Assembly: GCA_951406725.2 (NCBI GenBank)
Contig: OX597827.1
Coordinates: 59,830,001-59,894,000 of the forward strand
Length of the DNA: 64,000 bases
From: Octopus vulgaris
Taxonomy: Eukaryota
Reading direction: 5' to 3'
Below, in pieces: positions 47,465 to 48,480 of this stretch. Numbering within the stretch: position 1 is the first letter of the stretch; each line of letters starts with the position of its first letter. Position numbers: made by a program.

Positions 47465-48480
47465 CATTTATAAAGGGCTTAGTAAAATAAATTACTTTGC
47501 CACATACTGAACTCATTAGAAATAGCAACCAAAAAAATTTTTTTAGCCAAATTCTAATACTTAAAGAAAATTTCTCTCAGATAGTGCTTACTCAAAATAG
47601 CCAACGAAGGTATGGGGGTAAAAACATTAAAAAATCACAAGTGCAAAGGTTATTTGAGAACGTACGTTTCTAGATCAGCCAAATACAATTCGACATTTCT
47701 TTCGTCAAATGGTCCCTTTACATACTGAATACTTGGTGAAATTGATTAATAATTAATTAATTTTACCCTCAATTGTTGAAATTATAATTCATTTCTCTCT
47801 GTTTAATGCTTCGGTTTTCACCGATAAAATTATGGTGTTTGCTAGGTTAGCCCACGTGGGTGGAAAGGGGAGGGCAGAAATTCTTCGCTTGCATATTTTG
47901 AATTTGTTGGCACTGTTAGTCTGAACGGATCTTCGGAGGTGAAAAGTCGCCAAAAGGGTATGCTCCTACTTTCAGTGTTTACAAATCCGAATTAAGGAAT
48001 TTTGGGCTGACGAAAGAAATGTCGAATTGTATTTGGCTGATCTAGAAACGTACGTTCTCAAATAACCTTTGCACTTGTGATTTTTTAATGTTTTTACCCC
48101 CATACCTTCGTGGGCTATTTTGAGTAAGCACTATCTGAGAGAAATTTTCTTTAAGTATTAGAATTTGGCTAAAAAAATTTTTTTGGCTGCTATTTCTAAT
48201 GAGTTCAGTATGTGGCAAAGTAATTTATTTTACTAAGCCCTTTATAAAATGTAATATTTTGAATTCGCCTTAAATGGTCCCTTTACATACTGAATACTTG
48301 GTGAAATTGATTAATAATTAATTAATTTTACCGTCAATTGTTGAAATATATATATATATATATATATATAATCATATCAGGGTAAGAAAAGTTTTAGAAA
48401 TTTTTACTACCAGTGGCCTAGTGTGTAGAAAAATAAGTCAATAGACTATATATTATTCATATAAATAGTATATATATACA

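What the first reader, a model, noticed from the sequence alone, without database searches (positions are those of the whole stretch)
47466..48347. Young insertion preserving the full integration geometry (inverted arm, short direct repeat, 565-nt unit)
Seen: a ~240-bp near-perfect inverted copy (47466-47707), then the last 76 bp of the unit, then the whole 565-bp unit with a hammerhead at 48001-48062, ending in (TA)n. The inverted arm stops inside the CTGACGA core. Inference: target-primed reverse transcription of a tandem or circular template followed by template switching, as in PLE pseudo-LTR formation. The few mismatches imply recent activity.
Basis: partly seen in the sequence, partly recalled or inferred. 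Interest (0 to 1): 0.75.

Follow-up and report, generated by a model that had tools for sequence, protein, structure and literature searches.

The report
Penelope-type compound insertion of small ribozyme-bearing retroelement
This is a recent head-to-head plus partial-tandem insertion of a small non-coding, hammerhead-like retroelement into a (TA)n microsatellite, a geometry already described for Penelope-like elements, so it is a good example of a known kind rather than something new.

Summary
Window 47459-48347 reads: (TA)n, a 250-nt inverted copy, a 76-nt partial copy, a full 565-nt unit, (TA)n. The copies differ at 3 of 317 compared positions.

The window holds six more loci of this kind. 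One of them (E3, 56883-57726) shares E1's 3' tail. Its inverted copy starts at the homologous internal site, while its inner breakpoint differs.

The "hammerhead" gets no Rfam hit and lacks the G10.1-C11.1 pair. However, five loci share its plan: helix I keeps pairing with different sequences, and loop 3 is palindromic in 4 of 5. The unit RNA is strongly self-paired (z -6.8), as retrozymes are.

No reverse transcriptase or endonuclease lies in the window, so the element is non-autonomous. No paralogue of E1, no reads and no eukaryotic database could be checked.

Verdict: real; a new member of a known kind; modest interest.

The parts
47373..47462 (.). Left (TA)n flank, the presumed target microsatellite. 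Its last 4 bases (ATAT, 47459-47462) overlap the start of the inverted copy.
   Evidence: Read; boundary alignment.
47459..47707 (-). Inverted, 5'-truncated copy, the reverse complement of unit positions 48008-48257. Its outer end lies at an internal site of the unit, so it lacks the last 90 nt (the tail). Its inner end lies inside the CTGACGA box.
   Evidence: 250 nt, 98.4%; 2 mismatches of 241; both boundaries.
47707..47782 (+). Upstream partial copy, the last 76 nt of the unit (pseudo-LTR-like). It is joined to the inverted copy with 1 nt of shared sequence (A 47707).
   Evidence: 75 of 76 identical to 48272-48347.
47783..48347 (+). Full 565-nt unit: non-coding, 34% G+C. Its plus-sense RNA is predicted to fold into a long imperfect rod with the hammerhead-like motif near the tip.
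   Evidence: Period 565. Fold -162.2 kcal/mol, z -6.8, 0 of 100 shuffles as good. Minus strand -117.3, z -3.8. G+C. The start is uncertain by about 4 nt because TATA follows in both copies.
48001..48062 (+). Hammerhead-like motif of the minimal PLE type. Helix I is 48001-48006 paired with 48057-48062. CTGACGA is 48007-48013. The helix II region is 31 nt with one unpaired base at each end. GAAA is 48045-48048. Palindromic loop 3 is 48049-48054. The predicted cut falls after 48056.
   Evidence: Own descriptor and parse; no Rfam hit; self-dimer through the palindrome gains -9.4 kcal/mol. Catalysis was not tested.
48258..48347 (+). Tail: the 90 nt between the two inferred start sites of reverse transcription. 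It is present on the direct copy only. It is similar to the 3' end of element E3 (57623-57726).
   Evidence: local alignment score 50 and 46; 1 of 200 and 1 of 500 shuffles reach it; nhmmer profile finds only E1 and E3 copies.
48348..48370 (.). Right (TA)n flank. Beyond it a different element (E4b) lies tail-to-tail.

Best explanation
Window 47459-48347 is one compound insertion of a small non-coding retroelement that carries a minimal hammerhead-like motif. It depends on the reverse transcriptase and endonuclease of a Penelope-like element encoded elsewhere. It is a non-autonomous PLE derivative, close to the animal 'non-LTR retrozymes'.

Inferred mechanism:
1. The PLE protein cut both strands of a (TA)n microsatellite.
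2. The 3' end on one strand primed a cDNA at the element's 3'-most start site. That cDNA copied 641 nt, or 1.13 units, of an RNA longer than one unit. The RNA could be a multimeric transcript, a transcript with terminal redundancy, or a circle.
3. The 3' end on the other strand primed a second cDNA at an internal AU-rich site 90 nt upstream, with ATAT microhomology to the target. That cDNA copied 250 nt and stopped.
4. The two 5'-truncated ends were joined head to head with 1 nt of microhomology.

Shown: the geometry, its recurrence in the window, the fixed outer and variable inner ends, the motif plan, and the strong strand-specific RNA fold.

Inferred: the enzyme, the two-strand priming, the nature of the template, and ribozyme activity.
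For: Geometry.

Literature match:
- Frangieh 2024 (main text) reports that the purified PLE protein cleaves and extends both strands. Reverse transcription starts at two internal sites with the tail between them. The target is AT-rich, and uncleaved RNA is the dominant template.

Recurrence in the window:
- E3 (56883-57726) has an inverted copy, a 175-nt partial copy and a 546-nt unit.
- E2 (36814-37233) is 1.17 units ending in (TA)n.
- E4a, E4b, E5a and E5b are head-to-head pairs.
- In 6 of 6 head-to-head loci the extra 3' segment sits at one end only. In E5b it sits on the short copy; in the other five it sits on the long one.
- No (TA) bases separate the two 5' ends in any of the six.

Fixed outer end: the outer ends of the inverted copies of E1 and E3 are homologous. 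Their tails are similar.

Template state: both cDNAs of E1 run through the predicted cleavage site (48056/48057). The template was therefore uncleaved or religated.

Motif: the descriptor gives 4 hits against 0.01 expected, and the relaxed form gives 6 against 0.115 (200 second-order Markov simulations). Of the 6 relaxed hits, 5 lie inside these elements. Helix I pairs are kept with different sequences in all five motifs. Loop 3 is palindromic in 4 of 5.

RNA fold: z is -6.8, -4.46 and -3.07 for the E1, E2 and E3 units. The hammerhead-sense strand is always the more stable one.

Coding capacity: no RT or GIY-YIG domain was found in 60 of the 61 ORFs of 130 aa or more, or in 121 of the 230 ORFs of 75-129 aa (109 low-complexity ORFs dropped).
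Against: - No paralogue of E1 is in the window. Unit ends and start sites rest on this locus plus the related E3.
- No PLE protein gene was found, so the partner is assumed.
- Rfam reports no hammerhead for E1 at any threshold. Even the canonical-looking E2 motif scores only 12.3 bits against a gathering score of 34.
- The E1 motif has A.A where PLE mini-hammerheads keep G10.1-C11.1 (Cervera 2014). It fails my strict and medium descriptors, which only E2 passes.
- The lax descriptor was written after I had seen E1.
- The 62-nt motif alone is no more stable than shuffles.
- The tail is 90-104 nt here, against the 30-40 bp described.
- The locus has a single complete hammerhead-like motif. It could not by itself release a unit-length RNA.
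- Target-site duplications cannot be read inside (TA)n.
- Tail similarity of E4 to E1 and E3 is weak (15 and 34 of 500 shuffles reach it). E2 shows none.
- The assembly could not be checked against reads.
Confidence: 0.7

Rival explanations
1. A single target-primed cDNA is made from a tandem or circular template. The reverse transcriptase then switches template, onto its own or another cDNA, to write the inverted arm.
For: More-than-unit length of the direct copy (641 nt). One-base microhomology at the junction. PLE-type context.
Against: A switch to RNA cannot invert the sequence. Copying its own cDNA should run on to the cDNA's 5' end at 48347. The arm stops at 48257, the site homologous to the arm end in E3. 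A snap-back would be centred on the junction, yet the arm copies a region 300 nt away.
Confidence: 0.1
2. The whole 889-bp arrangement is the standard form of a master copy. It was transposed as one piece, so the arms were not made at this site.
For: No paralogue is available to exclude it. The hairpin element E4 occurs at two loci, 81-87% alike.
Against: E4a and E4b differ in their inner junctions. E5a and E5b differ in which copy bears the tail. Compound forms are therefore made anew. The E1 arms are 99% alike, so any such master would itself be very young.
Confidence: 0.08
3. Two independent insertions of the same element, in opposite orientation, into one microsatellite.
For: (TA)n is a repeated target here. 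E1 and E4b sit tail-to-tail 23 bp apart.
Against: No (TA) bases remain between the two 5' ends in E1 or in any of the other five head-to-head loci. Arm-to-unit and partial-copy-to-unit divergence are alike.
Confidence: 0.05
4. A DNA transposon of the MITE or foldback kind with long inverted repeats, or a mariner-derived MITE using TA targets.
For: 241-nt inverted repeat; TA-rich flanks; mariner/Mos1-like transposase fragments at 41754-42577 and 14410-14892.
Against: The right arm is not terminal; 90 nt lie outside it. The two termini share only about 6 bases in inverted orientation (my reading). E3 shows no terminal inverted repeat either. The partial tandem and the hammerhead-like motif are not MITE features.
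Confidence: 0.03
5. A DNA-level rearrangement at a fragile (TA)n tract (fold-back replication), or an assembly artefact.
For: (TA)n tracts are unstable. Craig 2021 notes that such structures trouble assemblies. No reads were available.
Against: The arms are not identical (2 mismatches and an indel). The same architecture, with family-specific fixed outer ends, recurs at other loci.
Confidence: 0.04

Closest known systems
Compound insertions of Penelope-like elements: pseudo-LTR partial tandem, upstream inverted 5'-truncated copy, and one-sided tail (Craig et al. 2021, PMC8557442, passages seen)
   Same: Partial tandem; inverted 5'-truncated copy abutting it; extra 3' segment at one end only; (TA)n target; frequent 5' truncation.
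   Different: The element is 565 nt and non-coding, not a 3-4 kb RT/EN element. The tail is 90-104 nt rather than 30-40 bp. The (TA)n preference was reported for Naiads, which lack canonical hammerheads, whereas these elements carry a hammerhead-like motif.
In vitro behaviour of the Anolis Poseidon PLE protein (Frangieh et al. 2024, PMC11167929, abstract and main text seen)
   Same: Cleavage and extension of both target strands; two internal RT start sites with the tail between them; AT-rich target; uncleaved RNA as template. Each feature has a counterpart in the E1, E3 and E5 geometry.
   Different: In vitro the start site was AC-rich and not homologous to the target. Here both inferred start sites are AU-rich and share 4-6 bases with (TA)n. 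Nothing here was tested biochemically.
Animal non-LTR retrozymes (Cervera and de la Pena 2020, PMC7229834, passages; Li et al. 2026 preprint 10.64898/2026.07.22.740005, abstract and section 14)
   Same: Small, non-coding, low G+C (34%). Type-I-like hammerhead. Highly self-paired RNA. Proposed dependence on PLEs.
   Different: Retrozymes are defined as tandem arrays (dimers to multimers) of 150-450 bp with one ribozyme per unit. This locus has 1.13 units of 565 bp and one complete motif. Circular RNA is untested.
Minimal hammerheads of PLE pseudo-LTRs (Cervera and De la Pena 2014, PMC4209133, parts 1-2 of 4 read)
   Same: Long helix II; an extra base after position 9; short helix III with a palindromic loop suited to dimers; pairs of motifs 100-700 bp apart on opposite strands.
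   Different: The G10.1-C11.1 pair that the paper calls highly conserved is A.A in E1, A.C in E3 and U.U in E5a and E5b. The helix II region is 31-59 nt, much longer than the 6-8 bp described.
Twin priming of LINE-1
   Same: A second cDNA is primed from the other target strand at an internal site of the RNA. This gives an inverted 5' segment. On a multimeric RNA the E1 inverted segment ends 14 nt from where the direct copy begins.
   Different: Different enzyme family. Here the internal site appears fixed rather than opportunistic, and the two segments duplicate each other because the template exceeded one unit.

Membership tests
PLE-type insertion (non-autonomous derivative) | Partial tandem giving a pseudo-LTR | tested here: met
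   47707-47782 repeats 48272-48347, 75 of 76 identical, period 565.
PLE-type insertion (non-autonomous derivative) | Inverted 5'-truncated copy directly upstream | tested here: met
   47459-47707 is the reverse complement of 48008-48257. It abuts the partial copy with 1 shared base.
PLE-type insertion (non-autonomous derivative) | Tail extension at one end only | tested here: met
   48258-48347 is present on the direct copy and absent from the inverted one. The same holds in 6 of 6 head-to-head loci. Length is 90 nt, against 30-40 bp in the literature.
PLE-type insertion (non-autonomous derivative) | AT-rich or microsatellite target | tested here: met
   (TA)n on both sides.
PLE-type insertion (non-autonomous derivative) | Sequence shared with the pLTR or 3' end of an autonomous PLE that encodes RT and a GIY-YIG endonuclease | not testable with these tools
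   No RT or GIY-YIG domain in the ORFs scanned. No eukaryotic genome or repeat library was on hand.
Animal non-LTR retrozyme | Tandem array with a type I hammerhead in each unit (at least a dimer) | tested here: not met
   Only 1.13 units and one complete motif.
Animal non-LTR retrozyme | Small, low-G+C unit whose RNA is highly self-paired | tested here: met
   34% G+C. Fold z -6.8, 0 of 100 shuffles as good. At 565 nt it is above the 150-450 bp quoted.
Animal non-LTR retrozyme | Expressed as circular RNA | not testable with these tools
   No transcript data.
Hammerhead ribozyme, type I (Rfam RF00163) / PLE mini-hammerhead | Match to the curated covariance model | tested here: not met
   No hit at the gathering score or at E<=10. 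The model is weak on this class: E2 scores 12.3 bits.
Hammerhead ribozyme, type I (Rfam RF00163) / PLE mini-hammerhead | Core boxes CUGANGA and GAAA, closed helix I, U-H cleavage site, palindromic loop 3 | tested here: met
Hammerhead ribozyme, type I (Rfam RF00163) / PLE mini-hammerhead | G10.1-C11.1 pair at the base of helix II | tested here: not met
   A and A flank the first paired bases. E1 fails the strict and medium descriptors.
Hammerhead ribozyme, type I (Rfam RF00163) / PLE mini-hammerhead | Self-cleavage | not testable with these tools
   Needs transcription of monomer and dimer constructs.
MITE / foldback DNA transposon | Inverted repeats at both termini | tested here: not met
   The right arm ends 90 nt inside the right terminus. 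The termini are not inverted repeats of each other (my reading).
MITE / foldback DNA transposon | Fixed-length target-site duplication | tested here: inconclusive
   Both flanks are (TA)n, so a duplication cannot be read.

The most novel reading that the evidence does not exclude
These elements are copied from unit-length circular RNAs by rolling-circle target-primed reverse transcription on both strands of a (TA)n target.

The three direct copies are all just over one unit: 1.13, 1.17 and 1.32 units. On this reading the enzyme stalls soon after completing a lap. In E1 it stalls 14 nt short of the site where the second-strand primer annealed.

The loci would then be a genomic footprint of circular-RNA-templated PLE integration. 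They would also be an in vivo record of the two RT start sites seen so far only in vitro.
Probability: 0.15. Interest if true: 0.6.

Novelty: new member of a known kind. Interest (0 to 1): 0.3.

Why it matters
The mechanism that gives PLEs their tandem and inverted ends is still open. Craig 2021 calls for an in vitro system, and Frangieh 2024 gives the first one.

Small young non-coding copies like E1 and E3 preserve both start sites, both 5' stops and the joining point in under 900 bp. A genome-wide census of such copies could test two-strand priming. It could also test the linear, redundant and circular template models without biochemistry.

The window also suggests a link between these elements and microsatellites. 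They land in (TA)n, and in E3 an (AC)2 of the element has grown to (AC)9 in the inverted copy.

If transcribed, the 241-bp near-perfect hairpin would be a source of double-stranded RNA.

None of this changes the classification. The kind of element and its geometry are in print.

Tried and rejected
- Rfam at gathering score on the whole window and at E<=10 on 1.2 kb and 121 nt gave no hammerhead for E1. The only hits were microsatellite look-alikes of miRNA families and weak snoRNA matches, which I take as chance.
- Searches for more copies of the E1 unit in the window (blastn word 11 and word 7, nhmmer) found none. The best stray hit was 45481-45584 at 63% identity, E 0.016.
- A profile of the E1 and E3 tails found only the E1 and E3 copies.
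- A global MAFFT alignment of the three units was uninformative, so I used local alignment with shuffles instead. E2 shows no significant similarity to E1 or E3: 119 and 48 of 200 shuffles reach the score.
- No tRNA-like part was found (ARAGORN, 0 genes), so a tRNA-derived SINE is not indicated.
- A snap-back origin of the arm was rejected on geometry.
- The idea that the arm stops at the ribozyme cut was rejected. The arm runs 49 nt past the predicted cleavage site.
- The idea that the partial copy always starts at TGGTCCC holds for E1 and E2 but not for E3. It is left unexplained.
- The self-dimer fold supports pairing through the palindrome. The thermodynamic model ignores the catalytic core, so I give it little weight.
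- I made no scan of genome contigs because it holds only bacteria and archaea. Paralogues outside the window, the host organism and the autonomous partner therefore stayed unchecked.
- No supplementary files were consulted. The supplementary figures of Cervera 2014 (shrimp and insect motifs) and of Frangieh 2024 (tail mapping) may bear on the motif and tail comparisons.
- Literature search for 'Penelope-like' together with 'twin priming' listed 3 papers. By title none is about the PLE mechanism. I did not read them.

Full report
**What is there.**
- The sequence between two (TA)n tracts (about 47373-47462 and 48348-48370) has three pieces.
- The first piece, 47459-47707, is the reverse complement of 48008-48257. 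It is 241 nt at 99% without gaps, has 2 mismatches of 241, and extends to 250 nt at 98.4% with one indel.
- The second piece, 47707-47782, repeats 48272-48347 with 75 of 76 identical at a spacing of 565.
- The third piece, 47783-48347, is therefore one full 565-nt period. The direct block 47707-48347 is 641 nt, or 1.13 units.
- The inverted arm ends between C 48007 and T 48008 of CTGACGA. A single A (47707) could belong to either piece.
- No other copy of the unit is in the window.

**The hammerhead claim.**
- Rfam finds no hammerhead here, either at the gathering score or at E<=10 in 1.2 kb or 121 nt.
- The 62-nt stretch folds no better than shuffles (z 0.11).
- Read directly, 48001-48062 has the following parts: a 6-bp helix I, CUGACGA, a 31-nt helix II region with one unpaired base at each end, GAAA, a 6-nt palindromic loop 3, and U-U before the predicted cut after 48056.
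- A descriptor of my own gave 3 hits in the window against 0.007 expected (300 simulations). With a longer helix II allowed it gave 4 hits against 0.01. A relaxed form gave 6 hits against 0.115 (200 simulations).
- Only one motif, at 36979-37008, passes a strict form that requires G10.1-C11.1. E1 fails that form.
- The lax form was written after I had seen E1, so its count is biased for E1. It is not biased for the other hits.
- Five of the six relaxed hits lie inside elements of the kind described below.
- The five motifs share a plan. Helix I is 6, 6, 7, 6 and 4 uninterrupted pairs, built from different sequences. The core is CUGA(C/A)GA. In 4 of 5 the helix II region is long and bracketed by one unpaired base on each side. 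Loop 3 is palindromic in 4 of 5.
- Cervera and De la Pena 2014 (parts 1-2 read) describe PLE mini-hammerheads with a long helix II, an extra base after position 9 and palindromic helix III loops suited to dimers. They also stress a conserved G10.1-C11.1 pair, which E1 lacks.
- Even the canonical-looking E2 motif scores only 12.3 bits on RF00163. Rfam's silence therefore weighs little.
- My reading is that this is a real family motif of the PLE mini-hammerhead type. Its activity is unknown, and as a single copy it is probably inactive.

**Relatives in the window.**
- *E3 (56883-57726).* It has (TA)n(TG)n on the left. The inverted copy 56883-57006 is the reverse complement of 57494-57617. The partial copy 57006-57180 repeats 57552-57726. 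The unit is 546 nt and ends in (TA)n. There are 2 mismatches of 119 and 1 of 175. One base is shared at the junction.
- *E2 (36814-37233).* It is 1.17 units of 359 nt ending in (TA)n. It has no inverted copy, and the repeat is 59 of 59 identical.
- *E4a (11838-12262) and E4b (48371-48765, minus strand).* These are head-to-head hairpins with an extra segment of roughly 100-120 nt on one side and (TA)n on both sides.
- *E5a (about 12404-12987) and E5b (about 43886-44324), both on the minus strand.* These are head-to-head pairs with a hammerhead-like motif.
- In all six head-to-head loci the extra 3' segment is at one end only. It is on the long copy in five loci and on the short copy in E5b.
- In none of the six do microsatellite bases separate the two 5' ends.

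**What the comparison shows.**
- The best local alignment between the E1 and E3 units is their last 100 nt or so. It runs from 48248-48347 to 57608-57721, with score 50; 1 of 200 shuffles reaches it. For the tails alone, 1 of 500 shuffles reaches the score.
- In both elements the inverted copy begins at the start of this shared segment, just 5' of TTTGAATT, where the unit reads ATAT and merges with the flanking repeat.
- The inner ends differ. The arm is 250 nt in E1 and 124 nt in E3. The partial copies are 76, 175 and 64 nt in E1, E3 and E2.
- A fixed outer end with a variable inner end is what a separately primed, 5'-truncated cDNA leaves behind.

**Match to the literature.**
- Frangieh et al. 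2024 found that a purified PLE protein cuts and extends both strands and starts reverse transcription at two internal sites with the tail between them. It prefers AT-rich DNA and uses uncleaved RNA.
- Craig et al. 2021 describe the partial tandem, the adjacent inverted copy, the one-sided tail and the (TA)n preference.
- Both E1 cDNAs cross the predicted ribozyme cut. The template was therefore uncleaved or religated.
- On a multimeric RNA, the direct copy stops 14 nt from where the inverted copy starts (unit positions 48272 and 48257). This resembles LINE-1 twin priming (recalled, not read). In E3 the two overlap by 66 nt.

**RNA properties.**
- The E1 unit folds at -162.2 kcal/mol, against -123.6 +/- 5.7 for shuffles. 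That is z -6.8, with 0 of 100 shuffles as good. The motif sits near the tip of a long rod.
- The opposite strand gives -117.3 kcal/mol (z -3.8).
- E2 gives z -4.46 on the plus strand against -2.52 on the minus strand. E3 gives -3.07 against -2.23.
- The bias towards the motif-bearing strand points to structure at the RNA level, as reported for retrozyme RNAs.
- G+C is 34%.
- There is no tRNA-like part.

**Coding capacity.**
- Pfam scans covered 60 of the 61 ORFs of 130 aa or more, and 121 of the 230 ORFs of 75-129 aa. The other 109 were dropped as low-complexity.
- Neither scan shows a reverse transcriptase or GIY-YIG domain. Only mariner/Mos1-like transposase fragments appear.
- The element is non-autonomous, and its partner is not in the window.

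**Age.**
- E1 shows 3 differences in 317 compared positions. E3 shows 3 in 294, and E2 shows 0 in 59.
- The E5b arms are 97.8% identical, the E5a arms 93.8% and the E4b arms about 76%.
- E1 is among the youngest, which fits activity continuing over time. The dating is uncalibrated, and conversion between the arms is possible.

**Verdict.**
- The structure is real and far beyond chance.
- It is best read as a PLE-type compound insertion of a non-autonomous, hammerhead-like, retrozyme-like element into (TA)n.
Its 'template switching' step is less likely than priming on both strands. Its hammerhead is plausible but unproven.
- The kind and the geometry are already published, so novelty is that of a new member.

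**Left open.** The host organism, genome-wide paralogues, the autonomous partner, read support and all expression data were out of reach.

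Noticed in passing
56883-57726: Element E3 has the same build as the finding. It has an inverted copy (56883-57006), a 175-nt partial copy and a 546-nt unit with a hammerhead-like motif at 57375-57452, and it ends in (TA)n. Its last 100 nt or so resemble E1's tail.
   Followed up: yes
36814-37233: Element E2 is 1.17 units of 359 nt ending in (TA)n, with no inverted copy. At 36973-37014 it carries the most canonical mini-hammerhead of the window: G-C at the base of helix II, a CCGG loop 3 and a GUC cut site. It scores only 12.3 bits on Rfam RF00163.
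   Followed up: partly
11838-12262 (+) and 48371-48765 (-): Family E4 consists of hairpin elements with an extra segment of roughly 100-120 nt on one side and (TA)n on both sides. The two copies are 81-87% alike, and no hammerhead-like motif was found. E4b lies tail-to-tail with the finding, 23 bp of (TA)n away.
   Followed up: partly
about 12404-12987 (-) and about 43886-44324 (-): Family E5 consists of head-to-head pairs with hammerhead-like motifs (12602-12526 and 44006-43929). Helix II regions are 58-59 nt and loop 3 is palindromic. In E5a the tail is on the long copy; in E5b it is on the short copy. The short copies end 15 and 25 nt 3' of the core box, close to where the E1 arm ends.
   Followed up: partly
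56870-56888 compared with 57612-57617: In the inverted copy of E3 an (AC)2 of the unit has become (AC)9. A microsatellite appears to be growing out of the element's own end.
   Followed up: partly
47710-47716, 48275-48281; 36814-36820, 37173-37179: The upstream partial copies of E1 and E2 both begin at or within 3 nt of TGGTCCC, although the two units are otherwise not alignable. E3 lacks the motif. This may be chance or a defined stop or start site. It is unexplained.
   Followed up: partly
41754-42577 (+); 14410-14892 (-): Fragments of mariner/Mos1-like transposase (HTH_48, Transposase_1, DDE_3).
   Followed up: no
52165-52356 and 53001-53194: A 194-nt inverted repeat, 98.5% alike, lies about 645 bp apart and is flanked by (CA)n on both sides. 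The arms belong to an abundant dispersed repeat, with many copies across the window at 80-92% identity.
   Followed up: no
55906-56458: Minisatellite of about 54-bp units, roughly ten copies.
   Followed up: no
27023-27058 (+): The only relaxed-descriptor hammerhead hit that lies outside a recognised element (helix I of 4 bp, loop 3 not palindromic). It is likely chance.
   Followed up: no
whole window: The window is very rich in microsatellites such as (TA)n, (GA)n, (CA)n, (CATA)n, (GATA)n and (CTT)n, and in dispersed repeats (200 non-self blast pairs). No tRNA gene was found and no Rfam family reached the gathering score. Passages of Yuan 2021 describe a similar link of Penelope elements with long (AT)n in penaeid shrimp, but the source organism was not determined.
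   Followed up: no
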